Counted from the first letter of the stretch, positions 43,503 through 58,351 are shown. The stretch: DNA of 64,000 nt from an uncultured Gemmatimonadales bacterium (GCA_963817435.1 CAWFNY010000004.1:22080-86079), one strand, 5' to 3'. Numbers and translations: made by a program. The notes: a model not told the origin generated them from the letters alone.

Positions 43503-45353
43503 TCACTGGACCTCGTCCGTGGTGCGGGAGTAGAGGGCCTGGATGGCCTCCTGGTACCGCTGCTCCACCATCCGGCGCTTCACCTTGAATGTCGGAGTCA
43601 GCAGCCCCGTTTCGACCGAGAGTTCCTCCCCCAGGATCGCGATCCGCTTGGGCCGCTCGAACTGGGCGAGGTCGTTCAGCCGGCCCAGCGACTCCGCCTC
43701 GAGCAGCTCGCGCACCAGCTTCTCGTGATAGAGCTGGGTGCGATCGTTGGCCGTGATGCCGTGCTCGATCGCCCATTGCCGGAGCCGCTCGAAGTCGGGC
43801 ACGATCAGCATCGCCGGGTAGGGCCGCCGATCCCCGATCATCACCGCCTGCGCGATGAACGGAGACAGCTGGGTGCGCCCCTCGATCGGTTGCGGGGCCA
43901 CCTTCTTGCCGCCGGCCGTGACGATCAGGTCCTTGATCCGGTCGGTGACGTGCAGGTAGCCGTCGTCGTCGAATGTGCCCACGTCTCCGGTGTGGAACCA
44001 CCCGTCGGCGTCGATCGCCGCTTTCGTTGCCTCAGGCTGGTTCCAATACCCCTGCATGACCGAGGGGCCCCTCGCCTGAATCTCGCCCTCGTCGCCAATC
44101 CGCAACTCGACGCCCGGATAGGGGAGCCCGACACTGCCCAGCCGCCAATTCTCAGGGCGGTTCGCGGCCAGCACCGGTGCGGTCTCCGTCAATCCGTACC
44201 CTTCGTACAGCGGGATCCCGGCCCCGAGGAAGAACCGGCCCACCACGGGGGAGAGGGGCGCTCCGCCACAAATCATGGTGGAGAGACGCCCGCCGAGGCC
44301 GTGGCGGATCTTCCGGAAGACCACGAGGTCCGCCAGTCGGTACTTGAACCTCAGACCCAGGCTCGGGGACTTCCGCGCGGCCCAGCAGTCGACCATCGCT
44401 CCGCCCACCTCGGCGGCCCAGTGCACCAGCTTCCCCTTGAGGCCGCCCGCCGCCATCACCTTGCCGTAGACTTTGTCGAACAGGCGGGGGACCGCGATCA
44501 TGATCTGCGGCCGCACCTCCAGCAGGTTCGCCGGTACCTGCGCGACCGATTCGGCGTAGGCGATCGTGACCCCATTGTCCCAGTAGTAGAAGTCGCCGAT
44601 GCGCTCGAGCACGTGGGAGAGCGGCAGCAGCGAGAGCGCGACCGAACCGGCGCTCGTGGCGAGCGAACCGTGCTGCTTCGAGGCGGCGATCATCGCCGCG
44701 AGGTTGTAATGGGTCAGGACCGCGCCTTTGGGCGTGCCCGTCGTCCCTGACGTATAGATGATGGTCGCGATGCTCGACTCGGAGAGGCTCAGCGCGCGCT
44801 TGCGAAGCTCCCGGCTCCAGATAGCCTGGCTCTCCGGGTTCTCATCCAGCTCCTTGGCGAGCGACTGCTCCGTGGATCCTGGCGGGGCTGGGTCGAACAT
44901 CATTACATGGGCCAGCATCGGGCACTGCTCGCGGATGCCGGCCAGCCGGGTGATCTGGGCCGCAGTGGAGATGAAGAGTGCCTGAGCGCCGCAGTCCCGG
45001 AGGATGTAGGCGACCTGATCGGGAGGGAGCGTCGGGTAGATCGGAACCACGATGAGGCCGAGCGCGAGCGCGGCATAGTCCACCATCGCCCACTCGGGGC
45101 GATTCTCCGAGAGCAGCGCCACCCGGTCGCCGGACTTCAATCCCCACGCGTTGAGGAGCGCGGCCACCTGGGCGACGCGGAGCTCGACATCCCGGTAACT
45201 CAGGCTCAGCCACTGGCCATCCCGCTTGAAGCGGAGCGCATCCTGCGGGCCGAAGCGGTCGATCGCCTCGTAGAAGATGTGGTTGAGCGTGGTGCGCGAA
45301 AACGGTTGCAGTGGAGTGACTGGGGCCGTGAAATGGGGTGCGATCGTGGTCAT
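43503..45353 (-). CDS. Long-chain fatty acid-CoA ligase (FadD15-like)
   Basis: IYTSGTTGTPKG, LPLSHVLE, YEGYGLTE, WFHTGDVG, DRIKDLIVTAGGKKVAPQPIE. Confidence 0.93.
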   Translation of the reverse strand: MTTIAPHFTAPVTPLQPFSRTTLNHIFYEAIDRFGPQDALRFKRDGQWLSLSYRDVELRVAQVAALLNAWGLKSGDRVALLSENRPEWAMVDYAALALGLIVVPIYPTLPPDQVAYILRDCGAQALFISTAAQITRLAGIREQCPMLAHVMMFDPAPPGSTEQSLAKELDENPESQAIWSRELRKRALSLSESSIATIIYTSGTTGTPKGAVLTHYNLAAMIAASKQHGSLATSAGSVALSLLPLSHVLERIGDFYYWDNGVTIAYAESVAQVPANLLEVRPQIMIAVPRLFDKVYGKVMAAGGLKGKLVHWAAEVGGAMVDCWAARKSPSLGLRFKYRLADLVVFRKIRHGLGGRLSTMICGGAPLSPVVGRFFLGAGIPLYEGYGLTETAPVLAANRPENWRLGSVGLPYPGVELRIGDEGEIQARGPSVMQGYWNQPEATKAAIDADGWFHTGDVGTFDDDGYLHVTDRIKDLIVTAGGKKVAPQPIEGRTQLSPFIAQAVMIGDRRPYPAMLIVPDFERLRQWAIEHGITANDRTQLYHEKLVRELLEAESLGRLNDLAQFERPKRIAILGEELSVETGLLTPTFKVKRRMVEQRYQEAIQALYSRTTDEVQ

Positions 45354-45507
45354 CGGGGCCTGCCTTGGGCGGCGCGCGTGGCCTGAACTGGCTCCGTCCG
45401 GAGCCCGCCGGGAGCCGCCCCGGAGGAGGGCGGGGTAGGCGGAGTCAGTCTTGTACAGTTATGGATAGCAGGGAGGGCTTGAAGATCCCGTGAAGGCAGG
45501 CTGTGAC

Positions 45508-47139
45508 TCAGCCTGCCTTTGCCGCCGGGACGCGACTCATGGCATACTCGGCGAGCGCGGTGATCGTCAGACTGGGATTGACCCCGGGGTTGGCGGGCAT
45601 GATCGAGCCGTCGATCACGTACAGCCCCGGGTAGCCGTGCACCTGGCAGTCAGCATCGATCACACCCTCCCCGGCGTTCCGCCCCATCGGACAGCCACCC
45701 AGAATGTGCGCCGTGATCGGGATGTCGAACAGCCCCTCATTGACAGACCCCATCGCGATGCCGTTGGTCCGTTCGGCGAACGTCCGGGTCACCTGGTGCC
45801 CGATCGCGATCTTGGTCGGAATGGTCGCCTCGTTGTCCGGCTGGGAGACGAGATCCCTCCTGAATCCGGTGAAGAGGCTGCGGCCAGGGCGCAGGCGGAT
45901 GCGGTTGTCCTCCCACTGCATTGCCAGCATGATCGTGGTCCGCTCCGCCCAGCCCGGCAGCAGGTGCGTCCGCATGAACTCGCCCGGGTGCCGCACAAGG
46001 TGCAGCGCCGACTGACCGAGGCGCGATGCCAGGCTGCCGGATTCGATCATCGGCCCGCCGAGCAGGCGCATGGCCGAGGAACCTGCGGGGTAACGCACCG
46101 GCTCGATCGTCGTCACCGCATCGGCCCGGAAGATCGAGGTGATCGCGATGCCCTTCGAGTAGTCGATGTCGGCGCTCCGGGCGACGCTGCCGAGCAGCGC
46201 TTCGTTGTTGGTGCGGACCATGTCACCGAGCCGCGGTGAAAGCCCGCGGAGCGAACCGGTGACCTCCCGGCAGCGGAAGAGCAGGCGCAGCGACCCCAGG
46301 GTCCCCGCGGAGACGATGACGTGGCGCGCGCGAATCGGCGCCATGTGGCGGTGCAGCAGGCCCGTCGTGCGCCTGGCGTGCACCTCGTACCGCGCTCCGT
46401 CCTGCTGCGGTCCCGCCAGTGGCCGGATGTCGCGGACGGTCGCCTCCGCGATGATCGTGGCGCCCCACTTCTCGGCGAAGTGCAGATAGTTCTTGGGCAG
46501 CGTGTTCTTCGAGTTAAGCTGGCATCCCACCATGCAGCCGCCGCAGTGAGTACAGGCCCGCCGCGCCGGTCCTTCACCACCGAAGTAGGGATCGGGAACC
46601 TCCACACCCTCCTGCCCCGGCGCGCCGAAGAAGGTCCCGACCGGCACCGGCCGGAAGCTCTCTCCGCGTCCGAGTTCCTCGGCGATCCTGCGCAGTTGCT
46701 GATCGGCGGGCCACAGCCTCGGATTCTCGGCGACGCCCAGCATGCGCTTCGCCGTGGCGTAGTGCGGTTGCAGCTCGCGCTTCCACTCGATCGGTCGCTG
46801 CCACGCCGGCGAGTTGAAGGCCTCGTCGCCCGGCTCCATGAGCACGTTAGCATAGCCGAGGCTCCCGCCACCGACGCCCGCGCCATGCAGCACGAACACG
46901 TTCTTGAACGGGCTGATCTGCAGGATGCCGTAACAGCCGACCGAGGGCGCCCACAGATACCGCGGCAGGTCCCACGTGCTGCGCGCGAAGTCCTGATCGC
47001 GGAATCGCCGGCCGCGCTCCAGCACCAGCACCCGATAGCCCTTCTCCGCCAGCCGCATCGCGGAGACGCTGCCACCGAAGCCGGAGCCGATGATGATGTA
47101 GTCGAATGTCTCGGTCACGACGAACGCTATCCACCTCAT
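45508..47139 (-). CDS. GMC oxidoreductase, cholesterol oxidase (ChoD)-like
   Basis: IIGSGFGGSVSA, GVGGGSLGYAN, CTHCGGCMVGC, KNTLPKNYL, TAHILGG, NPGVNPSLTITALAE. Confidence 0.88.
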   Translation of the reverse strand: MRWIAFVVTETFDYIIIGSGFGGSVSAMRLAEKGYRVLVLERGRRFRDQDFARSTWDLPRYLWAPSVGCYGILQISPFKNVFVLHGAGVGGGSLGYANVLMEPGDEAFNSPAWQRPIEWKRELQPHYATAKRMLGVAENPRLWPADQQLRRIAEELGRGESFRPVPVGTFFGAPGQEGVEVPDPYFGGEGPARRACTHCGGCMVGCQLNSKNTLPKNYLHFAEKWGATIIAEATVRDIRPLAGPQQDGARYEVHARRTTGLLHRHMAPIRARHVIVSAGTLGSLRLLFRCREVTGSLRGLSPRLGDMVRTNNEALLGSVARSADIDYSKGIAITSIFRADAVTTIEPVRYPAGSSAMRLLGGPMIESGSLASRLGQSALHLVRHPGEFMRTHLLPGWAERTTIMLAMQWEDNRIRLRPGRSLFTGFRRDLVSQPDNEATIPTKIAIGHQVTRTFAERTNGIAMGSVNEGLFDIPITAHILGGCPMGRNAGEGVIDADCQVHGYPGLYVIDGSIMPANPGVNPSLTITALAEYAMSRVPAAKAG

Positions 47140-47236
47140 GCGAGTGGCCGCAAGCTCAAACGCAAAGCTTGAACGGCGAGGCCGGCGCGTTCACCTTCAG
47201 GCAGCACGTTGACGGTGCCACTCACTGGAAATCTTC

Positions 47237-48136
47237 ATGAAGCTGCTGGAAGAGCTCGCGCGACGACAGCTCGTGGTCGTCACTGGCAAGGGCGGCGTCG
47301 GCAAGACGACGCTCGCTGCCGCGATCGGGCGTCTGCTTGCCGCGAGTGGCCGCCGGACGCTTCTCCTCGAGGTCGATCCCCGCGAGAGTCTCCATCAGCT
47401 TCTCGGTACGGAGCCGTCCGGCGGCCAGGTGGTGAAGGCCGGAACTCGCCTTGCCTCACAGAATCTGCAGGCCCGCGCGGTCGTGGATGGGCTGGTCCGT
47501 GAGAAGCTTCCCATCGCTGCCCTCGCGAGCAAGGTCATCGCCAGCTCCGTCTTCCAGCATTTCGCGGAGGGAGCACCCGGGCTCAAGGAGATGGCGGTCC
47601 TCGGGTATGCCCTCCGCACCGTCGAGGGTCACAACCGTCACAAGGCGGACGTCGTGGTCCTCGACGCGCCCGCGACCGGGCACAGTGCGTCGATGCTCGC
47701 GGCTCCCCTGGTGCTCTCCGACGCCATCGGCGGCGGCCAGCTCGGCGAGATGGCCAGGGAACTCGCCGGGTTCATCGCCGATCCCAAACGCTGCGGCGTG
47801 GTGCTGACGGCCATCGCCGAAGAGATGCCGGTCCAGGAAGCACTCGAACTGATCGCACTGCTCAGGGAGAAGATCGGCCGTCCGCCCGAGCTGCTCATCG
47901 CGAACGCCCTCTATCCGCCATTCCCGTCAGGCATCCCGGCCGGCCGCGCCTCCAGTGGCGACACGACGGCGGTTCTCGATCTCTGGCGCCAGCGGCGGGC
48001 CGTGAACGAACGGGAACTCAAGCGCCTCCGGGCCGGCTGGGCGGGGCCGATCGCCGAGATCCCGCTCCTCCCGGTCGACCGCGGTCCCGGCCTGCTCGCC
48101 GGGGTCGAATCGGCGCTCGCCGTGGCATTGCGATGA
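47237..48136 (+). CDS. ArsA/Get3-family ATPase, subunit 1
   Basis: TGKGGVGKTT, DAPATGH, EEMPVQEALE. No metal-binding Cys cluster. Confidence 0.88.
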   Translation: MKLLEELARRQLVVVTGKGGVGKTTLAAAIGRLLAASGRRTLLLEVDPRESLHQLLGTEPSGGQVVKAGTRLASQNLQARAVVDGLVREKLPIAALASKVIASSVFQHFAEGAPGLKEMAVLGYALRTVEGHNRHKADVVVLDAPATGHSASMLAAPLVLSDAIGGGQLGEMARELAGFIADPKRCGVVLTAIAEEMPVQEALELIALLREKIGRPPELLIANALYPPFPSGIPAGRASSGDTTAVLDLWRQRRAVNERELKRLRAGWAGPIAEIPLLPVDRGPGLLAGVESALAVALR

Positions 48137-49194
48137 GCCTCGGACCACTGGATCAGCGATTGCTGGTGGTGGTCGGCGCGGGAGGCGTCGGCAAGACCAC
48201 GCTTGCCGCCGCCCTCGGACTCCAGTCCGCCCGGGCCGGCAAGCACACGCTCGTCATGACCTTCGACCCATCCCTTCGGCTCAAGGACGCCCTCGGCGTC
48301 GGAGACGAGGCGAGAGAACGGGCGGTGCGGGTGAAGTCGGGTACCAAAGGCCGCCTCGATGTCGCCCTGCTCGATGCACGCACCACGTTCGACCGGCTGA
48401 TTCGCCGGTACGCTCCCGATGATGCCGCCGCCGAGCGGATCTTCAGCAACCGTTTCTATCGGGATCTCGCCGGGAACCTCGCCGGCATCCTCGAGTATAT
48501 GGCCGTCGAGCGCCTCTTCGAAGTGGCCGCGGACGGCAGCTACGATCGCATCATCCTCGACACCCCACCGACGCGGCAGGCGCTCGACTTCCTCGAGGCG
48601 CCGGACCGGATCGTGAACTTTCTCGACAGCGGGGCGGTGCGCCTCGCATTGAAGCCGTGGTGGGAGAAGGGCGGCGGACTCAAGCGGATGCCGATGCGGA
48701 TCGCGGCCAGGGGCGTCGAGCAGATCGTGGACCGGGTGATCGGCGTCCGGCTGCTGCAGGACATGCTCGAATTCTTCCGCGCCTTCGGTCCACTCTATGA
48801 TGGATTTCGCGGGCGAGCGAGCGACGTACGGGCGCTGCTGCGCGCCCCCGATTCGCTGTTTCTCCTGGTCAGCGGGCCCGGCGTGGATCGCATCCCCGAT
48901 ACGCTGTTCTTCGCCCGAAAGCTCAAGGAGGCGGGGCACCGGGTCGGCCCGATCGTGGTGAACCAGGTCCATCCCGCGGCGCCGTTGGCGAAGGGCGTCT
49001 CGCCGGACCTGGCCGAGGGGCTTTCACTGTTCCATTACCTGGGAGAGCGGGATCGGCACGGCCTGGAGCGGTTGCGCCAGCTGCTTTCCCGCGGCGAGCC
49101 GCTGCTGGCGATTCCGCTGCAGGCATCACCTCCGACCGACCTGGCGGAGTTGGAGGCGCTGGGTCGGGTCATCCGGGCGCAACTCGATCACTGA
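48133..49194 (+). CDS. ArsA/Get3-family ATPase, subunit 2
   Basis: GAGGVGKTT, TFDPSLRLKDALG, DTPPTRQALDFLEAP. ATGA overlap with subunit 1. Confidence 0.88.
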   Translation: MSLGPLDQRLLVVVGAGGVGKTTLAAALGLQSARAGKHTLVMTFDPSLRLKDALGVGDEARERAVRVKSGTKGRLDVALLDARTTFDRLIRRYAPDDAAAERIFSNRFYRDLAGNLAGILEYMAVERLFEVAADGSYDRIILDTPPTRQALDFLEAPDRIVNFLDSGAVRLALKPWWEKGGGLKRMPMRIAARGVEQIVDRVIGVRLLQDMLEFFRAFGPLYDGFRGRASDVRALLRAPDSLFLLVSGPGVDRIPDTLFFARKLKEAGHRVGPIVVNQVHPAAPLAKGVSPDLAEGLSLFHYLGERDRHGLERLRQLLSRGEPLLAIPLQASPPTDLAELEALGRVIRAQLDH

Positions 49195-49220
49195 GCCGGC
49201 CTCTTGCGGGCCGCGCTGCC

Positions 49221-49254
49221 AAGGCCGACACCTCCCCCGCGAGGTGTCGGCCTT
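49221..49254 (+). terminator. 14-bp hairpin after the ArsA pair
   Basis: aaggccgacacctc-ccccgc-gaggtgtcggcctt followed by cttc. Confidence 0.7.
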
Positions 49255-49298
49255 CTTCATGGTCCCGCCGCCGTGGATATCCCACGTGCGGGTGGGGG

Positions 49299-49348
49299 TT
49301 GCCGCAATGCGACATTCTGGGGGTTGCTTTTTTGCCGCAATGCGGTAA
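49299..49348. promoter_or_regulatory. Tandem TGC-rich palindromic operators (putative PhaR-type sites)
   Basis: ttgccgcaatgcg occurs at 49299 and 49332. The second copy is the near-palindrome ttgccgca-a-tgcggtaa. Confidence 0.6.
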
Positions 49349-49377
49349 GTTGGTTTCGTCCACATCGGAGGCGCATC

Positions 49378-49833
49378 ATGATCCGGCTCATCAAGCGGTA
49401 TGGCGGCGGCAGCCGAAAGCTCTACGACACGGAAGAGAGCCGCTATGTCTCGCTCGACGAGATCGCGGTATGGATCCGGGACGGTCAGGAGTTGCAGGTG
49501 GTGGACAGCGCGACCGGGGAGGATGTGACCGGTCAGACTCTGGCGCAAATCATCTATGAAGATCACAAGCGCGGCTATTCATTCCTGCCGAGTGAATTCC
49601 TTCACGACCTGATTCGGCGTGGAGGGCGCGTGATCGCCGATGGTGTCGAACAGCTTCAGACCGGCGTGGATCGCATCGTGAAGGCTTCCGTCGACAAGAT
49701 CAGCCCGGTGGGCGGCATGCAGGATGAACTGGACCTGTTGCGTGAGCGGCTGGCGGAGCTGGAGCAATCGCTGGTGCAGCTTGAGGAGGCGCCGAAGGCC
49801 CGGAAGCCGAGACGCAAGAAAGTCAGGACTTAG
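49378..49833 (+). CDS. PhaR-like regulator with PHA-synthesis-regulator DNA-binding domain
   Basis: IKRYGGGSRKLYDTEESRYVSL...VVDSATGEDVTGQTLAQII; coiled-coil and basic tail. Confidence 0.85.
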   Translation: MIRLIKRYGGGSRKLYDTEESRYVSLDEIAVWIRDGQELQVVDSATGEDVTGQTLAQIIYEDHKRGYSFLPSEFLHDLIRRGGRVIADGVEQLQTGVDRIVKASVDKISPVGGMQDELDLLRERLAELEQSLVQLEEAPKARKPRRKKVRT

Positions 49834-49911
49834 GAATTCGCCCCACGTTTGTTGCACGTGTCACTCATAGCAGCGTCCGGCCCCCGATGGCCGGCAACCC
49901 CGGAGGAAACC

Positions 49912-50331
49912 ATGGCGGCCAAGAAGAATTCCAAGAAGACCCAGGCGCTCCCGATGCTGAAGGAGTCGGCCCACGAGATCTGGCTGGCTGGTCTGGGCGC
50001 GTTCGCGCTCGCCGGCGAAGAGGGCGGCAAGCTCTTCGGTCAGCTCGTGAAGAAGGGTGAAGGCATGGAGAAGATGAACAAGGCGCGGATCAGCAACCTC
50101 GTGAGCCGTGCGGGTGATCTGCAGGGTGATGCGAAGCATGCCGTCGCCCGGCTCACCACGCCGATCGAGGCGGGTATGACCAATGCGATGCATCGCCTCG
50201 GCGTCCCGACCCGCAAGGAGATCGCGACCCTGACCAAGCGGGTCGAGGAACTGACCCGGGTGGTTGCCAAGAAGACCAATGGGCGGAAGGCGACCCGTCG
50301 TGTTCCGAAGGTTGCTCACGCCCGCGCCTGA
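49912..50331 (+). CDS. Phasin family granule-associated protein
   Basis: IWLAGLGAF, LFGQLVKKGE, LGVPTRKEIATLTKRVEEL (PhaF/PhaI-like). Confidence 0.88.
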   Translation: MAAKKNSKKTQALPMLKESAHEIWLAGLGAFALAGEEGGKLFGQLVKKGEGMEKMNKARISNLVSRAGDLQGDAKHAVARLTTPIEAGMTNAMHRLGVPTRKEIATLTKRVEELTRVVAKKTNGRKATRRVPKVAHARA

Positions 50332-50342
50332 GTGAGGTCCAT

Positions 50343-51584
50343 ATGACCACCGCGCGCCGAGGGCGGCGGGGTAGCCGGCTGGGGCTTGCCCTGGCCGGCG
50401 GGGGTCCGGCGGGTGCCGTCTATGAGATTGGCGCCCTCCGGGCCCTCGAGGAAGCGATCGAGGGCCTCGATCTGAACCAATGCGAGGTCTACGTCGGCGT
50501 CAGCGCGGGCGCATTCGTTGCCGCCTCGATGGCCAATGGGCAGACTTCCGAGCAGCTGGTTCGCGGTCTCGTGACCGATGAGCCGGGCGAACACCCCTTT
50601 GATCCAACCAGTTTCTTCAAGCCGGCCTACGGGGAGTGGATCCGCCGCGGGATGCAGCTCCCGGGGCTCATCGCCCATGCGGTGTGGCAAGTCTCCAACG
50701 CGCCACACGAAGAAACGCTGATGAAGTCGCTGGTCCGTGTCTCCCGGGCCCTTCCGCTCGGTCTGTTTGACAACGAACCGATCCGGCGGCACCTCGAACG
50801 GACCTTCGCGATCCGGGGTCGCACCAACGACTTCCGGAAGCTCAAACGGAAGCTCCGCGTGGTCTCGGCGGACCTGGAGGCGGGCACCCCGATCGTCTTC
50901 GGGTCCGAGGGATGGGACCATGTCCCGATCTCCCGTGCCGTTCAGGCGAGCACCGCGGTGCCCGGGCTCTATCCACCGGTCGAGATCGATGACCGCCTGT
51001 GCGTGGATGGCGTGCTGCTCAAGACGCTGCACGCTTCGGTGGCCCTCGAGGCCGGGGCAGACCTCCTGCTTTGCGTGAATCCTCTGGTGCCGGTGAATCT
51101 GTCGGCTGGAGAGATCCGGGGTGAACTTCCGCGTGGCGCCCTGATGCGGCGCGGAATCCCGGCGATCCTCTCTCAGACCTTCCGCACCATGATCCACTCG
51201 CGGATGGTGGTTGGGATGGCTGGCTATCGCAATCGGTATCCCGGTGCGGATGTGGTGCTATTCGAGCCGGAGCGCAGCGAGTACGGTCTCTTCTTCAGCA
51301 ATATCTTCAGCTTCGCCTCTCGCAGGGAAATCTGTCAGATCGGCTATTCCGCCACCCGCCGGGACCTGTGGCGCCGGCGCGCGGAGCTGGAGCCGATGCT
51401 CAAGCGGCATGGCTTCCGGCTGAAGACCGAACTGCTCGAAAATCCGGAGCAGGATATCTGGAAGGCAGTCGGGATTACCAGGAAGGGATACTCCGCGCCG
51501 GTGACAGACCGGCTTTCGACGGTGCTCGAACGTCTGGAGGCCCGGAGCCGTCCCCGCCGTCGTCCTGCACGACGCACCGCGTAG
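50343..51584 (+). CDS. Patatin-like phospholipase/lipase
   Basis: LAGGGPAG, GVSAG, ASTAVPG, DGV. Confidence 0.9.
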   Translation: MTTARRGRRGSRLGLALAGGGPAGAVYEIGALRALEEAIEGLDLNQCEVYVGVSAGAFVAASMANGQTSEQLVRGLVTDEPGEHPFDPTSFFKPAYGEWIRRGMQLPGLIAHAVWQVSNAPHEETLMKSLVRVSRALPLGLFDNEPIRRHLERTFAIRGRTNDFRKLKRKLRVVSADLEAGTPIVFGSEGWDHVPISRAVQASTAVPGLYPPVEIDDRLCVDGVLLKTLHASVALEAGADLLLCVNPLVPVNLSAGEIRGELPRGALMRRGIPAILSQTFRTMIHSRMVVGMAGYRNRYPGADVVLFEPERSEYGLFFSNIFSFASRREICQIGYSATRRDLWRRRAELEPMLKRHGFRLKTELLENPEQDIWKAVGITRKGYSAPVTDRLSTVLERLEARSRPRRRPARRTA

Positions 51585-51607
51585 ACGCGCCCGCCGGGCG
51601 CGTCTAC
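51581..51607. terminator. Bidirectional hairpin spanning the convergent stops of patatin and WS/DGAT
   Basis: gtagacgcgccc-gcc-gggcgcgtctac, a 12-bp stem containing both stop codons. Confidence 0.65.
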
Positions 51608-52893
51608 AGCGTGCGGAGGGCCTCGAGTTCTTCCTCGAACGCGCGCATGAGTACGCGGGCATCCGGCACCAGGACGGTATCCGCCAGGATGCCCACCTGG
51701 ACGTGCCCCGCGAAACTCAGGATTGAAATTCCCACGCCGATATCGGCGCGCTGCGGTACCCAGAACATCAGGCCCCGCACCCGTCGTCCCGCCAGGATCA
51801 GCTCCCGCTGCGGCCCGGGCACGTTGGTCACCACGGCCGTGCACTTGTTGGCGAGGAAGTCGATGAGTCCGCGACTGACCCCCTGCGGCAGCAGGGTCAG
51901 CATCGCGTGCTGGATGCCGTACACCACGATCGGCACCACCGACTGCTTGAGGGCATCCATCTGGACCTTCACCGCCCGGACCCGATCGCCGATATGCTCG
52001 ATGCCGGCCGGCAACTCGAGTGGCACCGCCGCGAACCGATTCTCGAGCCGCAGCGGCTCTTCCGCCGACCGGATATTGACCGGCATCGAGATATGCAGTT
52101 TGCGGATCGTCTGGCCGGCCTGGGTGGCGAGGTAGCGGCTGAACGCACCCGATACGACCGCCATCAGCACGTCGTTGACCGTGGCATCCAGTCGCTGACG
52201 TGCCTGCTTCACGACGGCCAGGTCGAAGGGCGCGGTCCAGGCGACCTGCTTCCGGCCGGAAACCTTCGCGCCGTGCAGTGCATGGCGGTCCGGCTGCCAG
52301 AGCAGCCGCCTGAGGAGGATTCCCGGTGCAGCCAGCGGTACGCGGATCGCCCTCAGGAATCCCTTGCCCAATGCGCCAGCCGCGGGGCGGATCCGGTCTT
52401 TCGCCGGTACCGTCTCATGCTCCGAGGTCATCTCTTCCATCAGTGCGAAGATGACCGCGATCAGCGCGATCCCGTCGCCAATGCTGTGGTGAATCCGCGC
52501 GAGGATCACGCTCGATTCGGTCCCGTAACTCTCGATCACCTGGAACTGCCAGGGCGGGCGATCGGCCGGCAGCGGCGTCGAGGCTTCCTCGCCTAGATAC
52601 CGCTGCAGTTCTTCGATGGTGGCGAGCTCGTTCTCCCGGGCGGGGATCACGTGCCGCCTGATATCGAATTCGGGGTCTCGCTCCCAGTACGGCGCTCCGC
52701 GGACATGGATGACCCGATCGCGAAAGCGCGCGTACTGCGTCCCGCCACCGGCGTCGATCACCCGGCTCTGGAAGGTCTCACGGAAGGTGGCCAGGTCGAT
52801 CTGGTCGGTGATGAAGACCCCGTTGATCACCATCAGATTCGTGGCGGTATCCTGCAGCCACACCGCATCGTGTCCCGAGACTCGTTCGCGCAT
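51604..52893 (-). CDS. Wax ester synthase/diacylglycerol acyltransferase (WS/DGAT)
   Basis: DAVWL, RPPWQ, HHSIGDG (HHxxxDG), TVNDV, MPVNIR, TNVPGP, SFAG. Confidence 0.92.
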   Translation of the reverse strand: MRERVSGHDAVWLQDTATNLMVINGVFITDQIDLATFRETFQSRVIDAGGGTQYARFRDRVIHVRGAPYWERDPEFDIRRHVIPARENELATIEELQRYLGEEASTPLPADRPPWQFQVIESYGTESSVILARIHHSIGDGIALIAVIFALMEEMTSEHETVPAKDRIRPAAGALGKGFLRAIRVPLAAPGILLRRLLWQPDRHALHGAKVSGRKQVAWTAPFDLAVVKQARQRLDATVNDVLMAVVSGAFSRYLATQAGQTIRKLHISMPVNIRSAEEPLRLENRFAAVPLELPAGIEHIGDRVRAVKVQMDALKQSVVPIVVYGIQHAMLTLLPQGVSRGLIDFLANKCTAVVTNVPGPQRELILAGRRVRGLMFWVPQRADIGVGISILSFAGHVQVGILADTVLVPDARVLMRAFEEELEALRTL

Positions 52894-52897
52894 CGAC

Positions 52898-54577
52898 TCA
52901 GCTCCGGCGGATGGCGAGAAAGAAGGCGATGACGAACAGCCCGCTCCAGACCGGCCATGGGGCGGCGAAGCCCATCGCGATGGCCCCCGCCACGAGACAG
53001 GAGCCTGCGATCAGCGTCCCCCGCAAACCCTTGAGGGGATTCTCCGTTGGCTGATGGGCGACTCGCTCGAGCACCCTGAGTCCGTCGGTGACCAGGAGCG
53101 GCATCTTGGCCATGGCGTCGACCATGTCCGGCGCGCCCCGCATGCCCTCGGTCAACAGCCGAAGCGGGCTGAACTGCTGGATGAACAGGGCGCGGATATG
53201 CTTCTTCGACACCTCGGCGACGTCGAAGCCGGGGAGCAGGACATGGCCGACGCCCTCGAAGGTCACCAGTGCCTTGACCATCAGCACCAGTTCGACGGGG
53301 AAGTACATCCCATGCTGCGCGCCGCGGCTCAGCGAGTCGAGGATGAGCTGTCCCAGCGAATATCCCTCGAAGGTCGAGGTGCGCTTCCAGCGGTTGGCGA
53401 TCTCGGCGACCTCACGCCGGAAGGCCGCCGGATTGGCATCCGGGCCCGGCTTGGCGATGGCCGAGAGATAGCGCGCGGAATTGTCGGCGTCCCCCATGAC
53501 CAGCGCGAAGTAGTAGTAGAGCAGCGCCCGCCGCAGATCCTCGTCGAGGCGCCCCACCATGCCGAGATCGATGAAGCCGATCTGCGGGCCGGGAAGGATC
53601 ATCAGGTTGCCCGGGTGCAGGTCGGCGTGGAAGAAGCCGTCGCGGTAGAGCATCCTGATGATCGACTCGGCGCCGCGGTCGGTCAGGTGCCGGCGCTCTT
53701 CCTCTGGGAGGGCCTGGGCCTCCTCGGAATCGGGGCGGATTCCGTCGAAGAACTCCATGGTGAGCACGCTGCGGCCCGAGAGGTCGCGGTAGATCGCGGG
53801 GAAGACCACGTCGGGGGTGTCGGCGAAATTAGCCGCAAAGGTCTCCGCGTTGTCAGCCTCCCGGCGCAGGTCGACCTCGCGCAGGGTGTAATCGGAGAAC
53901 TCGGTGACCAGCTGCTTGGGCTGATAGCGGGGGATGATCAGTTCTGCCAGGCTGCCTAGGAGACCGAGGAGCTTCGCGTCGCGCTGCAGCGTCTCCCGGA
54001 TGCCCGGCTTGACCACCTTGATGACGACCGGGTCGCCATCGTTGGTCGTGGCCCGGTGGGTCTGGCCGATCGAGGCGGATCCGAGCGGGATCGGATCGAT
54101 CTGCAGGAAGAGCTCCGCGACCGGGCGGTGCAGGTCCCTCTCGATAATGGAAGTCAGCACCGGCAGTGGCACCACCGGCAGCTGATTGAGAAGCGACCTG
54201 AGTTCGGTGGTGATGCTCTTCGGGAGCAGGTCTTCCCGGAGACTCAGGATCTGTCCCAGCTTGATGTAGGTGGGCCCGAGCCGCTCGAGCCGGCGGCGGA
54301 ACTGCACCGCGAACGGCTGGGCGCGCAGCTCGCGATCCACGAAGGGCGCGGAGACCGCCGCCACCAGCCGGATCAGCAGGAACTTGAAGCCGCGGCCGGT
54401 GCCCTCCTCCCGTTCGTGCCGGACGTAGGCGGCCAGGCCCCCGAAGAGCAGACCGAGGAAGTGCCGGTAGGTCGCCGCGAAGCGGGTGAGCAGGCCCGGT
54501 GGCCGCGTCACCCGCATGATCTCGAAGCCGTGGGCGCGGAGCAGGTCCTCGTTCGACGGGTCAGCGATTGCGGCCAT
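52898..54577 (-). CDS. ABC1/UbiB/AarF family atypical kinase
   Basis: LGPTYIKLGQILS, LGSASIGQTH, VIKV, GFFHADLHPGN, IDLGMVG. Confidence 0.92.
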   Translation of the reverse strand: MAAIADPSNEDLLRAHGFEIMRVTRPPGLLTRFAATYRHFLGLLFGGLAAYVRHEREEGTGRGFKFLLIRLVAAVSAPFVDRELRAQPFAVQFRRRLERLGPTYIKLGQILSLREDLLPKSITTELRSLLNQLPVVPLPVLTSIIERDLHRPVAELFLQIDPIPLGSASIGQTHRATTNDGDPVVIKVVKPGIRETLQRDAKLLGLLGSLAELIIPRYQPKQLVTEFSDYTLREVDLRREADNAETFAANFADTPDVVFPAIYRDLSGRSVLTMEFFDGIRPDSEEAQALPEEERRHLTDRGAESIIRMLYRDGFFHADLHPGNLMILPGPQIGFIDLGMVGRLDEDLRRALLYYYFALVMGDADNSARYLSAIAKPGPDANPAAFRREVAEIANRWKRTSTFEGYSLGQLILDSLSRGAQHGMYFPVELVLMVKALVTFEGVGHVLLPGFDVAEVSKKHIRALFIQQFSPLRLLTEGMRGAPDMVDAMAKMPLLVTDGLRVLERVAHQPTENPLKGLRGTLIAGSCLVAGAIAMGFAAPWPVWSGLFVIAFFLAIRRS

Positions 54578-56102
54578 ACTCCTCGTGCGACGAGACCCAT
54601 TCCAGCGATGAGATCGCGGCTGCCAGCGAAATCTCGCCCGCCAGCACCACGCCGGCCACGATCTCGGCGAACTTGTTCACCTTTCCCTTGCCGACGCAGC
54701 CGAGCACCCCAAGGCATTCCCGCTGAGTGGGGAGATGGGTGCCGCCGCCGTGGGTTGCGACGATGAGTGATGGAATGGTGATCGACAGATACAGATCCTT
54801 CTCCGCGGTGAGCTCGGTGTAGACGATGCCCGCCGAACCTTCCGCGACGTTGGCGACGTCCTGTCCGGTCGCGATGAACATCGCCGTGATCGCATTGGGC
54901 GAATGGAGGCCGTTGTTGTTGGCGCCCGACAGGATTGCCCCGATATTGGCGACCCCCCAATGGTAATGGAGGCTCTCCGGCTCCACCCGCATCACCTCCA
55001 GCAGGACATCCCGCTTGATCACGCATTCCGCCGTCACCCGCTTGCCGCGGGTGCGCATGAGGTTCACCTGGGAGGCCTTCTTGTCCGTGGCGAGGTTGGA
55101 CTCCAGGTAGAACCGCCGGATGGACTTGTTGTTCTCCAGGATCCAGCTGCTGGCGGCGTAGGTGGCGCGCCCCACCATGTTCTGGCCCGCCGCGTCGCCG
55201 GTGAAATAGTTGAAGCGCAGGAACGCGAACTTGCTCGCCAGATAGGTGTCGATGTACTGCAGCTTGCCGACACGGGTAGTGGCCTCCGCCTCGCGACGGA
55301 TATCGTCCATGTGGGCGTCCACCCAGTCCCGGAAGGCGCGGGCCTCCCGCGCCGTATCGAACACGAAGACCGGCGCCCGCTGCATGTGATCTCCCTGGAT
55401 GGTGCAGACCGCGCCACCGCAGAGGTTGAGCACCTTCATGCCCCGGTTGTAGCTCGCGACGAGTGTGCCCTCTGTCGTGGCCAGCGGGATGACATATTCG
55501 CCGGTGGCGTACTCGCCATTGATCTTGAGCGGACCCGCGAAGCCCAGCGGAACCTGGGCGACGCCGGTGAAGTTCTCGATGTTGCCCCTGGTCTCAAGGG
55601 GGTCGAAGGACTGCTTGTCGACGTGATCGAGCTTGGTGCCGCTGAACTCCTCCACCCAGCGCTGGCGCTTCGAAACGACCTCCCGGGAGTAGTTGTCCTC
55701 CTTGGAGTACGGCACCGCCTTGGGACGGGCCAGCGGGGCGGCGACGTGGTCCTTCACCTTGACGGTGAGCGCGCCGACGCCCTTGACCTCGATCCCGATC
55801 TCGATGTCGACCGTGCCGTCCGGCAGCGTGCGGCCCGGGACGCGCAGGTGGGCCACTCGGCGGAGCGGGAATTCCTCCGGTCGTTCCGGTGTCACCTCAG
55901 TGGCCGGGCGCCAGTGACCGTCGCCCAGGTCTACCTGCAGGTCCTTCGCCAGGATTTCGAGTTCATTGAGTCGCAGGCGCGCGATCCCGATCAGCGTGAC
56001 GTCGCTCAGGCGGTTCTTGAGGCTGAGGCGGCAGCCGTCCGGATCGTTGACGAGCGAGCCGAACGTGTACATCTGGCGCAGGAGCAACTGGGGGATCTTC
56101 AT
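54561..56102 (-). CDS. hmgA: Class I HMG-CoA reductase with an extra ~135-aa N-terminal domain
   Basis: IENFTG, PLATTEGTLVAS, TGDAAGQNM, DKK, TGQDVAN, C-terminal His (SHEEYGRNR). Confidence 0.88.
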   Translation of the reverse strand: MKIPQLLLRQMYTFGSLVNDPDGCRLSLKNRLSDVTLIGIARLRLNELEILAKDLQVDLGDGHWRPATEVTPERPEEFPLRRVAHLRVPGRTLPDGTVDIEIGIEVKGVGALTVKVKDHVAAPLARPKAVPYSKEDNYSREVVSKRQRWVEEFSGTKLDHVDKQSFDPLETRGNIENFTGVAQVPLGFAGPLKINGEYATGEYVIPLATTEGTLVASYNRGMKVLNLCGGAVCTIQGDHMQRAPVFVFDTAREARAFRDWVDAHMDDIRREAEATTRVGKLQYIDTYLASKFAFLRFNYFTGDAAGQNMVGRATYAASSWILENNKSIRRFYLESNLATDKKASQVNLMRTRGKRVTAECVIKRDVLLEVMRVEPESLHYHWGVANIGAILSGANNNGLHSPNAITAMFIATGQDVANVAEGSAGIVYTELTAEKDLYLSITIPSLIVATHGGGTHLPTQRECLGVLGCVGKGKVNKFAEIVAGVVLAGEISLAAAISSLEWVSSHEEYGRNR

Positions 56103-56165
56103 GGATTGGTCCGGAAGATGTGGTCCGAGGCTCTAATGTGTCATACGATGCGACCCACCGCCAAC

Positions 56166-56981
56166 TCAGCCCTCCCAGGGCAGGGTGCCGGTCTCGAGTC
56201 CGCGCAGCAGCGCGGCGACTTCCAAGGGCCGCTCGGTCGGCACGGCGTGGCCCACGCCGGGATAGGAAATCAGCCGTGAGTGGGGCAGCCGGCGGTGCAT
56301 CGCCAGCGACCACCGGGGCCGCAGCACCTTGTCGGCCGAGCCGGAGATGATCAGCGTCGGTGTCTGCAGTTCCCCCAGCTGCTCGAGCAGCGAGGGGCGC
56401 CGGGCGACCGCCCGCAGCGCCTGTACCAGCGCCGGGGCGCGCATGGCGCGGACCACGCTTTCCCAGCGGGTGACCTCGCCTGGATTCCGCTTCCGGAAGG
56501 CCGGGCTGAAGGCGCTGCGCGAGGCCTCGTGAGCGAGGAATTTCGGCGCGCCGGCGATTTCGATGATTTTCGCGAGCGCCTTGATCTCCGCGACCCGCAC
56601 CAGTTCCTCCGCCGCGGCGCTGGTGCCGATCAGCGCGAGTCCGCGCAGCCGGTCACGGTGCCGCAGCGCGAAATCCGCAGCCGCCATGCCGCCCATGCTG
56701 AAGCCCGCGAGGATGAGCTTCGGGAGGCTGAGTTGCTGCACGATCGCGAACAGGTCGTCGGCGAGGTCGGCGATCGTCCAGGGCGTGGCCGGAACGTCGC
56801 TGCGCCCGTGCCCGCGGAGGTCAGGCACCACCACCCGGTGGTCGCGCGCCAGTTCGTCGCGGAGCTTCGCGAACATGCCGGCATCGCACCACATGCCGTG
56901 CGCGAGAAGCACCACCGGCCCCGTGCCGACGTCGTCGACGCAGAGCCGGAGATCTCCGCGCGTGATCCAGCGCTCGGTCAC
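56166..56981 (-). CDS. Alpha/beta hydrolase
   Basis: LAHG, PDLRGHGRS, GFSMGG, GSAD, GVGH. Confidence 0.9.
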   Translation of the reverse strand: MTERWITRGDLRLCVDDVGTGPVVLLAHGMWCDAGMFAKLRDELARDHRVVVPDLRGHGRSDVPATPWTIADLADDLFAIVQQLSLPKLILAGFSMGGMAAADFALRHRDRLRGLALIGTSAAAEELVRVAEIKALAKIIEIAGAPKFLAHEASRSAFSPAFRKRNPGEVTRWESVVRAMRAPALVQALRAVARRPSLLEQLGELQTPTLIISGSADKVLRPRWSLAMHRRLPHSRLISYPGVGHAVPTERPLEVAALLRGLETGTLPWEG

Positions 56982-58043: not shown

Positions 58044-58053
58044 ATGCGTCCCT

Positions 58054-58344: not shown

Positions 58345-58351
58345 TACCGAC

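What the first reader, a model, noticed from the sequence alone, without database searches (positions are those of the whole stretch)
43503..56981. PhaC-less storage-lipid cluster: PHA-granule parts combined with WS/DGAT and lipid-droplet-type accessory genes
Seen: within ~13.5 kb, FadD, ChoD-like oxidase, ArsA/Get3 pair, PhaR-like regulator, phasin, patatin lipase, WS/DGAT, ABC1 kinase, HMG-CoA reductase and an alpha/beta hydrolase, with no phaC/phaA/phaB in the window. Established: PhaR and phasins act on PHA granules; WS/DGAT makes TAG/wax-ester inclusions; patatin lipases (ATGL) and ABC1 kinases are core proteins of eukaryotic lipid droplets and plastoglobules respectively; Get3 ATPases deliver hydrophobic clients. 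Inference: this is a complete bacterial neutral-lipid body module covering synthesis, coat, lipolysis, targeting and sensing, in which the phasin/PhaR circuit serves a WS/DGAT product instead of PHA.
Basis: partly seen in the sequence, partly recalled or inferred. Interest (0 to 1): 0.8.

Follow-up and report, generated by a model that had tools for sequence, protein, structure and literature searches.

The report
Wax-ester body cluster with phasin coat
A soil Gemmatimonadota bacterium with no bioplastic (PHA) synthase keeps PHA-type coat and regulator genes inside a gene cluster that most likely makes, coats and breaks down wax-ester fat droplets, and the same link recurs in bacteria of several other major groups.

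Summary
The genome (97.7% complete) and 40 relatives have no PhaC. One label needs correcting. The "HMG-CoA reductase" is FcrA, the HMGR-derived fatty acyl-CoA reductase described in 2025. It has the Lad N-domain and the S684E and L862W substitutions, and the genome has Dxr but no HMG-CoA synthase. FadD, FcrA and WS/DGAT therefore form a complete wax-ester pathway.

The order ArsA-ArsA-PhaR-phasin-patatin / WS/DGAT-ABC1-FcrA is kept across the genus and in Holophagaceae and Geothrix. Reduced forms occur in Thermoanaerobaculia, Chitinophagales and a delta MAG, all without PhaC. In Betaproteobacteria the same phasin-patatin pair sits beside AcrB, an unrelated wax-ester reductase, in 42 of 65 loci.

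phaR has a conserved two-box palindromic operator at a promoter-like site. Metatranscriptome contigs cover only phaR-phasin-patatin, with the greatest depth on phasin. The ArsA pair is BagAB-like.

Best reading: a wax-ester lipid-body module with a reused phasin/PhaR circuit. The enzymatic part is well supported. The coat, sensing and targeting roles are inferred. This is a new variant of a known kind.

The parts
43503..45353 (-). FadD-type long-chain acyl-CoA synthetase (FadD11-like). It would activate fatty acids.
   Evidence: PF00501 at 271 bits. NCBIfam FadD11 at 323 bits, below its cut-off. Syntenic in only part of the genus.
45508..47139 (-). GMC flavoprotein oxidoreductase, cholesterol-oxidase-like. 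Proposed fatty-alcohol oxidase or dehydrogenase for mobilisation (inferred).
   Evidence: GMC_oxred_N/C. NF058674 at 549 bits over the full length, below the 850 cut-off. Present in all Gemmatimonadota versions of the cluster and absent from the Acidobacteriota versions.
47237..48136 (+). BagA-like ArsA/Get3-fold ATPase.
   Evidence: PF02374. Best NCBIfam hit BagA at 85 bits. Best PDB hit 6BS3_A, Rv3679.
48133..49194 (+). BagB-like ArsA/Get3-fold ATPase. Overlaps the first ATPase gene by 4 nt.
   Evidence: Best NCBIfam hit BagB at 227 bits. Best PDB hit 6BS3_B, Rv3680, at 176 bits.
49221..49254 (+). 14-bp G+C-rich hairpin after the second ATPase gene. Likely a transcript boundary.
   Evidence: Fold of 49205-49270: -41.2 kcal/mol, z = -5.65 against shuffles. 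No clear U-tract follows.
49299..49346 (.). Two operator-like boxes, TTGCCGCAATGCG(A/G), with core palindrome CCGCA-N-TGCGG, 33 bp apart. Box 2 lies between a -35-like TTGCTT and a -10-like TAAGTT.
   Evidence: The 12-mer occurs only at these two sites in the 4.12-Mb genome. Conserved upstream of phaR across the genus and in Holophagaceae and Geothrix. Not enriched elsewhere in the genome.
49375..49833 (+). PhaR-like regulator: PHB_acc_N DNA-binding domain, a coiled-coil C-terminal half and a basic tail.
   Evidence: PF07879 at 78 bits. TIGR01848 at 79 bits, below the 109 cut-off. No PF05233 hit at E<=0.01. Single copy in the genome.
49912..50331 (+). PF05597 (PhaF/PhaI-type) phasin-like protein. 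Net charge +16, invariant IWLAGLGA hydrophobic motif, short basic tail. Proposed coat protein.
   Evidence: PF05597 at 95 bits. TIGR01837 at 78 bits, below 94.7. Alignment A1. Highest metatranscriptome contig depth in the cluster. Charge and hydrophobic moment.
50343..51584 (+). Patatin-like lipase/esterase with GGGxxG, GVSAG and DG motifs present. Proposed lipolysis enzyme.
   Evidence: PF01734 at 92 bits. Directly downstream of the phasin in 59 of 70 loci. Lies on the same metatranscriptome contig as phaR-phasin.
51604..52893 (-). WS/DGAT acyltransferase with the HHSIGDG motif. The only copy in the genome.
   Evidence: PF06974 at 123 bits and PF03007 at 69 bits. TIGR02946 at 273 bits, below 310. 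Single copy.
52898..54577 (-). ABC1/UbiB-family atypical kinase with a hydrophobic C-terminal tail (residues 520-556 of 559). Sits between FcrA and WS/DGAT.
   Evidence: PF03109 at 217 bits. Hydropathy. Overlaps fcrA by 17 nt and ends 4 nt before WS/DGAT. Kept next to the acyltransferase in every non-betaproteobacterial variant that carries an acyltransferase.
54561..56102 (-). FcrA, an HMGR-class-I-derived fatty acyl-CoA reductase with an N-terminal Lad domain.
   Evidence: PF00368 at 413 bits and PF25653 at 91 bits. Signature residues E in 'LESNLATDKK' and W in 'LEWVSSH' compared with PMC11948995. No HMG-CoA synthase; Dxr present.
56166..56981 (-). Alpha/beta hydrolase with a serine nucleophile (GFSMGG). 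An esterase-type accessory gene, not a PhaC.
   Evidence: PF00561 at 101 bits. Only sub-threshold NCBIfam hits. Present in most but not all genus members. Start codon uncertain; the ORF runs to 57239.

Best explanation
This is a horizontally mobile gene cluster for wax-ester (possibly also TAG) lipid bodies.

**Synthesis.** FadD activates fatty acids. FcrA, mis-called HMG-CoA reductase, reduces acyl-CoA to fatty alcohol. The single WS/DGAT esterifies the alcohol. An ABC1/UbiB-type protein is translationally coupled between the two enzymes and probably handles or regulates the hydrophobic intermediates.

**Coat, control and mobilisation.** A separate operon, phaR-phasin-patatin, is controlled by two palindromic boxes at its own promoter. 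By analogy with PhaR/PhaP, the PhaR-like repressor would be titrated off its operator by the hydrophobic surface of nascent lipid bodies. This would release expression of the abundant basic phasin-like coat protein and of the patatin esterase that mobilises the store. The GMC oxidoreductase would then oxidise the released fatty alcohol.

**ATPase pair.** The BagAB-like Get3-fold pair is a co-inherited accessory, possibly a chaperone or insertase for hydrophobic-tailed clients such as the ABC1 protein.

**Shown:** gene identities, FcrA signature residues, absence of PhaC and of the mevalonate route, synteny, phyletic coupling, the operator footprint, and co-transcription of phaR-phasin-patatin.

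**Inferred:** the lipid product, phasin localisation, the PhaR sensing mechanism, and the roles of ABC1, GMC and BagAB.
For: 1. FcrA identity. The protein has the HMGR fold plus the Lad domain. It carries S684->E, L862->W and Lys->Ala at the HMG-binding lysine, as defined for FcrA in PMC11948995. The genome has Dxr and no HMG-CoA synthase. No AcrB/FarA-type reductase is present.

2. No PhaC. None in the own genome, in 40 relatives, or in 7 other cluster-bearing genomes of other lineages. Three betaproteobacterial controls scored positive.

3. Synteny. Kept across the genus. The full order ArsA-ArsA-PhaR-phasin-patatin/WS-DGAT-ABC1-FcrA is also in Holophagaceae and Geothrix. Reduced cores occur in Thermoanaerobaculia, Chitinophagales and a delta MAG. 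In some lineages a PF01553 acyltransferase sits in the WS/DGAT position.

4. Two unrelated reductases. In 42 of 65 loci (Betaproteobacteria) the same phasin-patatin pair lies divergent to AcrB. The one copy scanned scored 1007 bits on PRK07201; the other 41 were assigned by tblastn identity to it. PRK07201 is the profile used for AcrB in PMC11948995. WS/DGAT and ACBP are often nearby.

5. Phyletic coupling in 41 relatives. Phasin and FcrA: 24 genomes have both, 1 has phasin only (a 73%-complete genome), 16 have neither; Fisher p = 1.6e-10. WS/DGAT tracks them with one exception: G027 has phasin and FcrA but a PF01553 acyltransferase instead of WS/DGAT.

6. Operator. The 12-mer is unique in the genome. 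The two boxes are conserved across two phyla at a -35/-10-like site.

7. Expression. Soil and sediment metatranscriptome contigs 92-97% identical cover only phaR-phasin-patatin. One 1080-nt contig spans 49379-50458. Depth peaks on the phasin.
Against: - There is no lipid, microscopy or proteomic data for this uncultured lineage.
- FcrA co-occurs less strictly with WS/DGAT than AcrB does and may serve other pathways (PMC11948995).
- Variants with a PF01553 acyltransferase and no FcrA show that the deepest conserved core is not wax-ester specific.
- The phasin, PhaR, WS/DGAT, ABC1 and BagAB matches all fall below NCBIfam trusted cut-offs.
- The phyletic coupling is partly a trivial consequence of the genes being inherited as one block.
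- Box 2 of the operator can also be read as an RNA hairpin.
- Metatranscriptome contig depth is a poor measure of expression, and the contigs come from related strains, not this one.
- Patatin-like proteins and PF05597 phasins do act on PHA granules in other organisms (PhaZh1, cited in PMC6520949), so family membership alone does not point to wax esters.
Confidence: 0.6

Rival explanations
1. The module remodels membrane or envelope lipids rather than serving storage bodies. The acyltransferase (WS/DGAT or PlsC-type), the patatin phospholipase and ABC1/UbiB would remodel or traffic membrane lipids, possibly fatty-alcohol-derived ether or alkyl lipids. The phasin-like protein would be an amphipathic membrane-stress protein, and PhaR would sense membrane state.
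For: The Thermoanaerobaculia, Chitinophagales and family-2 Gemmatimonadaceae variants carry a PF01553 (PlsC-type) acyltransferase instead of WS/DGAT, two of them without FcrA. HSP20, ClpB and DnaJ lie next to the ArsA pair in Acidobacteriota loci. UbiB-family proteins are linked to membrane lipid handling (background knowledge). FcrA is said to serve non-wax-ester pathways at times.
Against: This window has a complete FadD-FcrA-WS/DGAT route with an intact HHxxxDG motif. The same phasin-patatin pair sits beside AcrB, which is found in WS/DGAT genomes 94% of the time. ACBP and WS/DGAT are nearby in Ramlibacter.
Confidence: 0.15
2. The enzymes form a wax-ester pathway, but the phaR-phasin-patatin and BagAB genes are merely co-transferred neighbours with unrelated roles, such as a nucleoid-associated basic protein, a general chaperone or a stress response. 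They would have no physical link to lipid bodies.
For: No direct localisation data exist. The phasin is very basic (+16), as expected for a DNA-binding protein. The PhaR boxes are found only at its own promoter, so there is no regulatory tie to the enzyme operon. BagAB in mycobacteria is linked to glycerol and NO stress, not to lipid bodies (PMC10597346).
Against: Linkage of the same phasin-patatin pair to two unrelated fatty acyl-CoA reductases in different phyla is hard to explain by hitch-hiking. Co-loss of phasin, FcrA and WS/DGAT in G004 and G012 fits a single unit. Phasins bind hydrophobic inclusions generically (background knowledge).
Confidence: 0.15
3. The organism makes PHA after all, using an unrecognised synthase, and the phasin, PhaR and patatin serve PHA granules. 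Patatin would then be a PhaZh1-like depolymerase.
For: PF05597 and PHB_acc_N are PHA-granule families. A patatin-like protein is a PHA depolymerase in Haloferax (cited in PMC6520949). An alpha/beta hydrolase lies in the cluster.
Against: No PhaC by three models in a 97.7%-complete genome, and none in 47 other cluster-related genomes, while controls were positive. The cluster hydrolase has a Ser, not Cys, nucleophile (GFSMGG) and gave no TIGR01836 match.
Confidence: 0.03

Closest known systems
FadD-FcrA-WS/DGAT wax-ester pathway (Grossi et al. 2025, ISME J, PMC11948995)
   Same: The HMGR-derived reductase has the Lad domain and the same discriminating residues, lies next to WS/DGAT and fadD, and occurs in a genome without the mevalonate pathway. 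The paper itself notes a Holophagaceae contig with fcrA beside WS/DGAT.
   Different: The paper does not mention a phasin, PhaR, patatin, ABC1 or ArsA-type genes. Here ABC1 is wedged between fcrA and WS/DGAT, and a coat/regulator/lipase operon is attached.
PhaR-PhaP autoregulatory circuit of PHA granules (Cupriavidus, Paracoccus, Rhodobacter)
   Same: A homologous PHB_acc_N regulator sits directly upstream of a phasin gene. Paired operator boxes rich in TGC/GCA half-sites overlap its own promoter. The phasin is the most highly expressed gene.
   Different: There is no PhaC anywhere in the genome. No PHB_acc C-terminal domain was detected. The phasin is PF05597 (PhaF/PhaI type), not PhaP (PF09361). 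The neighbours are wax-ester genes.
MLDS/MLDSR and TadA of Rhodococcus TAG lipid droplets (PMC5504291)
   Same: The logic is the same: a small abundant droplet protein is encoded next to a regulator that controls it. The coat protein is basic and possibly binds DNA.
   Different: The proteins are not homologous. The lineage (Actinomycetota) and the lipid (TAG) differ. No experimental evidence exists for the present system.
BagAB (Rv3679/Rv3680) of Mycobacterium tuberculosis, PDB 6BS3
   Same: Two adjacent Get3/ArsA-fold ATPase genes in A-then-B order. Each has the corresponding Bag subunit as its best PDB and NCBIfam hit.
   Different: Scores are below the equivalog cut-offs. Mycobacterial bagAB is linked to glycerol and NO toxicity and has no known lipid-body context. 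Here the pair is syntenic with PhaR-phasin in at least three phyla.
Plastoglobule and cyanoglobule ABC1 kinases (PMC12223511)
   Same: An ABC1/UbiB-family protein is associated with a neutral-lipid droplet system that also contains an acyltransferase.
   Different: Those droplets hold prenyl lipids, and the kinases were shown by proteomics. Here the link is only genomic, and the lipid is fatty-alcohol or ester based.
Burkholderiales WS/DGAT scaffolds with AcrB-type reductase, a 'PHA system protein' and a putative phasin (PLoS One 2023, PMC10351704)
   Same: The same betaproteobacterial arrangement that I found around the phasin-patatin pair.
   Different: There the phasin was mentioned in passing as PHA metabolism. 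It was not linked to wax-ester bodies or to PhaC-less phyla.

Membership tests
FcrA (HMGR-derived fatty acyl-CoA reductase) | Class-I HMGR catalytic fold with catalytic Glu, Lys, Asp and His retained | tested here: met
   PF00368 at 413 bits. ATTEG, DKK, GQD and the C-terminal His all align with solved HMGRs.
FcrA (HMGR-derived fatty acyl-CoA reductase) | N-terminal beta-rich Lad domain | tested here: met
   PF25653 HMG-CoA_red_N at 91 bits, residues 7-120. The domain is lacking in the G027-type ortholog.
FcrA (HMGR-derived fatty acyl-CoA reductase) | Pocket substitutions: Ser684->Glu, Leu862->bulky Trp, and the HMG-binding Lys->small residue | tested here: met
   'LESNLATDKK' and 'LEWVSSH'. 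Ala aligns with the 'mlKn' lysine of plant HMGR, against the criteria. The paper numbers that lysine 795; I mapped it by alignment only.
FcrA (HMGR-derived fatty acyl-CoA reductase) | Host lacks the mevalonate pathway | tested here: met
   No HMG-CoA synthase; best hit 28 bits against a 360-bit cut-off. Dxr is present at 361-404 bits. Other mevalonate-pathway enzymes were not searched.
FcrA (HMGR-derived fatty acyl-CoA reductase) | Reduces long-chain acyl-CoA, not HMG-CoA | not testable with these tools
   Requires an enzyme assay.
WS/DGAT | PF03007 and PF06974 domains with the HHxxxDG motif | tested here: met
   HHSIGDG is visible in the sequence. TIGR02946 scored 273 bits, below the 310 cut-off.
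PHA phasin (PF05597, PhaF/PhaI type) | Sequence match above the family threshold | tested here: met
   PF05597 at 95.3 bits against a 28.8 cut-off. NCBIfam TIGR01837 scored 78 bits, below 94.7.
PHA phasin (PF05597, PhaF/PhaI type) | Acts on PHA granules, so the host makes PHA | tested here: not met
   No PhaC in the genome or its relatives. The protein is a sequence-family member but cannot be a PHA-granule protein here.
PhaR (PHA synthesis repressor) | N-terminal PHB_acc_N DNA-binding domain | tested here: met
   PF07879 at 78 bits.
PhaR (PHA synthesis repressor) | C-terminal PHB_acc domain and full-length equivalog score | tested here: not met
   No PF05233 hit at E<=0.01. TIGR01848 scored 79 bits, below 109, and covers only residues 4-86.
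PhaR (PHA synthesis repressor) | Autoregulation through repeated operators at its own or the phasin promoter | tested here: inconclusive
   Two conserved palindromic boxes lie at a promoter-like site. Binding was not tested, and box 2 also folds as a hairpin.
BagAB (Get3-like ATPase heterodimer) | Two adjacent ArsA-fold genes, each closest to the corresponding Bag subunit | tested here: met
   ArsA1 matches 6BS3_A and ArsA2 matches 6BS3_B as best PDB hits. BagA and BagB are the best NCBIfam hits.
BagAB (Get3-like ATPase heterodimer) | Equivalog-level similarity | tested here: not met
   85 bits against a 400 cut-off, and 227 bits against 521. These are homologs, not demonstrated equivalents.
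ABC1/UbiB atypical kinase | ABC1 domain | tested here: met
   PF03109 at 217 bits. TIGR01982 UbiB scored 331 bits, below 487. A second, 32%-identical paralog lies elsewhere in the genome.
Patatin-like lipase | Patatin domain with the oxyanion GGGxxG, GxSxG Ser and DG Asp motifs | tested here: met
   PF01734 at 92 bits. GGGPAG, GVSAG and VDGV are visible in the sequence. Substrate unknown.
PHA biosynthesis system (classes I-IV) | PhaC synthase present | tested here: not met
   PF07167, TIGR01836 and TIGR01838 were all negative in a 97.7%-complete genome. Positive controls appear.

The most novel reading that the evidence does not exclude
PF05597 phasins, their PhaR-like repressors and the adjacent patatin would form a dedicated coat, sensor and lipase set for wax-ester bodies in Gram-negative bacteria, spread by horizontal transfer across Gemmatimonadota, Acidobacteriota, Bacteroidota and Betaproteobacteria. 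Within this set, the orphan BagAB-type Get3-fold ATPases would deliver hydrophobic-tailed clients, such as the tail-anchored ABC1/UbiB protein wedged between FcrA and WS/DGAT, to the droplet or membrane. This would give BagAB its first client, give the UbiB family a role outside quinone biology, and make the system a prokaryotic counterpart of Get3-dependent targeting to lipid droplets.
Probability: 0.15. Interest if true: 0.85.

Novelty: new variant of a known kind. Interest (0 to 1): 0.62.

Why it matters
No structural coat protein, sensor or dedicated lipase is established for the wax-ester bodies of Gram-negative bacteria, as far as my own knowledge and four full-text searches go. Bacterial lipid-droplet proteins are known mainly from Actinomycetota.

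This cluster and its relatives offer concrete, testable candidates:
- a phasin, a PhaR-like repressor with a defined operator, and a patatin lipase;
- a cellular context for two poorly understood families, BagAB Get3-like ATPases and non-quinone ABC1/UbiB proteins.

It also shows that 'phasin' and 'PhaR' annotations cannot be used as markers of PHA storage in metagenomes. Likewise, 'HMG-CoA reductase' annotations in Gemmatimonadota and Acidobacteriota mostly mark fatty-alcohol synthesis. Both points affect how carbon-storage potential in soil is inferred from genomes.

Tried and rejected
1. HMGR as part of an isoprenoid or sterol-ester storage route: rejected. HMG-CoA synthase is absent, Dxr is present, and the FcrA pocket residues are in place.
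2. The cluster alpha/beta hydrolase as a cryptic class III/IV PhaC: rejected. It has a Ser nucleophile and gave no TIGR01836 match.
3. A wider PhaR regulon found by searching the palindrome genome-wide: nothing. There were 10 exact sites against about 19 expected, and none at other cluster promoters.
4. Consensus sigma-70 promoter scan of the cluster: no hits under the tool's strict rule. The promoter assignment therefore rests on the conservation pattern alone.
5. The search for homologous proteins with the phasin returned only close Gemmatimonadales relatives in its top 120. It was useful for taxonomy only.
6. Literature searches for phasin with WS/DGAT, or for a BagAB link to lipid droplets, found no direct precedent.
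7. An AcrB/FarA-type reductase in the own genome: only SDR-domain partial hits.
8. I did not run structure prediction or fold searches. The open questions (localisation, clients) cannot be settled by fold.

Full report
**Observation**

- FadD, 43503-45353(-)
- a GMC/cholesterol-oxidase-like flavoprotein, 45508-47139(-)
- two ArsA-fold ATPases overlapping by 4 nt, 47237-48136 and 48133-49194(+)
- a PhaR-like protein with only the PHB_acc_N domain (likely start ATG 49375)
- a PF05597 phasin (likely start ATG 49912)
- a patatin, 50343-51584(+)
- a WS/DGAT with HHSIGDG, 51604-52893(-)
- an ABC1/UbiB protein, 52898-54577(-)
- an HMGR-fold protein, 54561-56102(-)
- an alpha/beta hydrolase, 56166-~56981(-)

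I scanned 30 of the best-supported ORFs of the window and found no phaC or thiolase among them. About 15 ORFs, mostly in 14500-27400, were not scanned. The organism is an uncultured Gemmatimonadales lineage from soil and wetland.

**No PHA synthase**

PF07167, TIGR01836 and TIGR01838 find nothing in the 4.12-Mb, 97.7%-complete genome. PF07167 finds nothing in 40 relatives of the same order either. The same search is positive in Caulobacter and in three Betaproteobacteria, so the method works. The cluster hydrolase has a serine nucleophile (GFSMGG), not cysteine, and no class-III synthase score.

**The 'HMG-CoA reductase' is FcrA**

Grossi et al. 2025 (PMC11948995) showed that a clade of class-I HMGR homologs reduces long-chain acyl-CoA to fatty alcohol for wax-ester synthesis. 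The clade often carries an extra N-terminal Lad domain, and its hosts lack the mevalonate pathway. Three pocket changes define it: Ser684->Glu, Leu862->Trp, and a conserved Lys->small residue.

The window protein fits on each point:
- It has the N-terminal domain (PF25653).
- It reads 'LESNLATDKK' and 'LEWVSSH', and has Ala at the HMG-binding lysine in alignments to solved HMGRs.
- The genome has Dxr but no HMG-CoA synthase.
- No AcrB/FarA-type reductase is present, and WS/DGAT is single-copy.

FadD, FcrA and WS/DGAT therefore form a complete wax-ester route. The isoprenoid reading is rejected.

**Operon layout**

- fcrA overlaps ABC1 by 17 nt, and ABC1 ends 4 nt before WS/DGAT. ABC1 is thus embedded in the synthesis operon.
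- The ArsA pair is followed by a strong hairpin (-41 kcal/mol, z = -5.65).
- Next come two boxes, TTGCCGCAATGCG(A/G), 33 bp apart. Their 12-mer occurs nowhere else in the genome.
- The boxes (core CCGCA-N-TGCGG) are conserved upstream of phaR throughout the genus and in Holophagaceae and Geothrix. Box 2 lies between a -35-like and a TAnnnT -10-like hexamer.
- The palindrome is not enriched elsewhere, so the predicted regulon is phaR-phasin-patatin itself.
- Caveat: the tool's strict promoter scan finds nothing, and it reads box 2 as a hairpin.

**Expression**

Two public metatranscriptomes (sediment and soil) contain contigs 92-97% identical to the window. These contigs cover only phaR, phasin and patatin. 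One 1080-nt contig runs from 49379 (4 nt after the phaR ATG) into patatin. Depth peaks on the phasin. The ArsA, WS/DGAT, ABC1 and fcrA genes are essentially uncovered. This fits a polycistronic phaR-phasin-patatin transcript with a highly expressed phasin. The contigs come from related strains, and contig depth is a crude measure.

**Conservation**

- Within the genus, the order GMC / ArsA-ArsA-PhaR-phasin-patatin / WS-DGAT-ABC1-FcrA-hydrolase is kept down to about 60% identity.
- A scan of one genome per species with a phasin alignment gave 80 loci.
- The full eight-gene order recurs in Holophagaceae and Geothrix, both Acidobacteriota.
- Thermoanaerobaculia has ArsA-ArsA-PhaR-phasin-patatin / PF01553 acyltransferase-ABC1.
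- A Chitinophagales MAG has PhaR-phasin / PF01553 acyltransferase-ABC1.
- A delta MAG has ArsA-ArsA-PhaR-phasin-phasin-patatin.
- Family-2 Gemmatimonadaceae have GMC-phasin-patatin / PF01553 acyltransferase-ABC1-FcrA.
- All of these genomes lack PhaC_N.
- Patatin follows the phasin in 59 of 70 loci.

**An independent line from Betaproteobacteria**

In 42 of 65 loci, the same phasin-patatin pair lies divergent to a ~662-aa homolog of the Ramlibacter reductase, at 62-82% identity by tblastn. These 42 are nearly all of the Burkholderiales and Rhodocyclales loci. The Ramlibacter copy scores 1007 bits on PRK07201. Grossi et al. used that profile for AcrB, the reductase that occurs in WS/DGAT genomes 94% of the time. 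WS/DGAT, an acyl-CoA-binding protein and a 'PHA_gran_rgn' gene are often within 5 kb.

One phasin-patatin pair is therefore tied to two unrelated fatty-alcohol-forming reductases in different phyla. That is difficult to explain unless the pair works with fatty-alcohol or wax-ester metabolism. A 2023 metagenome paper noted the beta arrangement in passing and read the phasin as PHA-related (PMC10351704).

**Phyletic pattern**

Among 41 relatives, phasin and FcrA are gained and lost together. Both are absent in G004 and G012. Both are present in only two of the 16 other-family genomes. The Fisher test gives p = 1.6e-10. WS/DGAT follows the same pattern except in G027, which carries a PF01553 acyltransferase in its place. 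This shows a single unit of inheritance. Because the genes are linked, it is not independent proof of shared function.

**ArsA pair**

Each ATPase has the matching subunit of M. tuberculosis BagAB (Rv3679/Rv3680, PDB 6BS3) as its best PDB and NCBIfam hit, though below equivalog cut-offs. BagAB is implicated in glycerol and NO toxicity, and its client is unknown (PMC10597346). Here the pair always travels with PhaR-phasin. The ABC1 protein ends in a 37-residue hydrophobic tail, which makes it a candidate tail-anchored client. That idea is speculation.

**Mechanism proposed**

The enzymatic steps are well supported and the rest is inferred.
1. FadD -> FcrA -> WS/DGAT build wax esters.
2. ABC1 assists or regulates hand-over of the hydrophobic intermediates.
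3. The PhaR-like repressor leaves its two-box operator when lipid surfaces appear, which releases the phasin coat and the patatin esterase.
4. The GMC enzyme oxidises the freed fatty alcohol.
5. BagAB-like ATPases act as chaperones for hydrophobic clients.

**Rivals**

- A membrane-lipid remodelling module, favoured by the PF01553 variants and by neighbouring heat-shock genes.
- Co-transferred but unrelated neighbours.
- Cryptic PHA synthesis, which is nearly excluded.

**Comparison and novelty**

The FcrA-WS/DGAT pathway is published. PhaR/PhaP logic is known for PHA, and MLDS/MLDSR logic for Rhodococcus TAG droplets (PMC5504291). ABC1 kinases are known on cyanoglobules (PMC12223511). What is new is that PHA-family coat and regulator genes, a patatin, an ABC1 protein and BagAB-like ATPases are wired to wax-ester genes in PhaC-less bacteria of several phyla. 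I file it as a new variant of a known kind.

Earlier notes of this scan on other genomes reached similar readings. I treat them as leads, not as evidence.

Noticed in passing
window 58391-62088: Malate synthase (58391-59971), DUF779 (60063-60449) and an aldehyde dehydrogenase (60454-62088) lie just beyond the cluster. Malate synthase also lies 3-4 kb from the phasin-patatin pair in several Betaproteobacteria (L053-L055, L058). This may link lipid mobilisation to the glyoxylate shunt and to fatty-aldehyde oxidation.
   Followed up: partly
L034 11485-12690; L129 11744-12940; L131 10761-11918: A ~390-aa PF01553 (PlsC-type) acyltransferase with no NCBIfam name occupies the WS/DGAT position next to ABC1 in three other lineages. 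It is a possible non-orthologous neutral-lipid acyltransferase.
   Followed up: partly
G019:C3:138021-138447 and G021:C1:74674-76214: In two same-genus genomes the WS/DGAT (G019) and fcrA (G021) matches are split over two frames. These are either frameshift pseudogenes or assembly errors.
   Followed up: no
L036/L046 (G007), about 4 kb upstream of the main phasin; L130 9521-9922: A second, divergent PF05597 phasin paralog (35-39% identity) is present in one genus member, and a tandem phasin pair in the delta MAG.
   Followed up: no
L122 1927-2385; L129 1827-6126: HSP20 (plus ClpB and DnaJ in L129) lies a few kb upstream of the ArsA pair in two Acidobacteriota loci. This recalls the HSP20-like domains fused to some Get3 paralogs.
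   Followed up: no
L133 13608-17614: In one betaproteobacterial MAG, malate synthase and isocitrate lyase appear only as short fragments (112, 244 and 176 aa) near the phasin-patatin pair. These are likely frameshifts or decay.
   Followed up: no
window 40202-43379: A carbamoyltransferase (NodU/CmcH type) and a weak GDSL-like protein flank the cluster. They stay adjacent in the closest relatives but not beyond, so they are probably unrelated to it.
   Followed up: partly
window 57972-58601: The 209-aa ORF here has no family hit and looks spurious. Another reader of this scan places a tRNA-Asn and a leader element at 58015-58344. I did not examine it.
   Followed up: no
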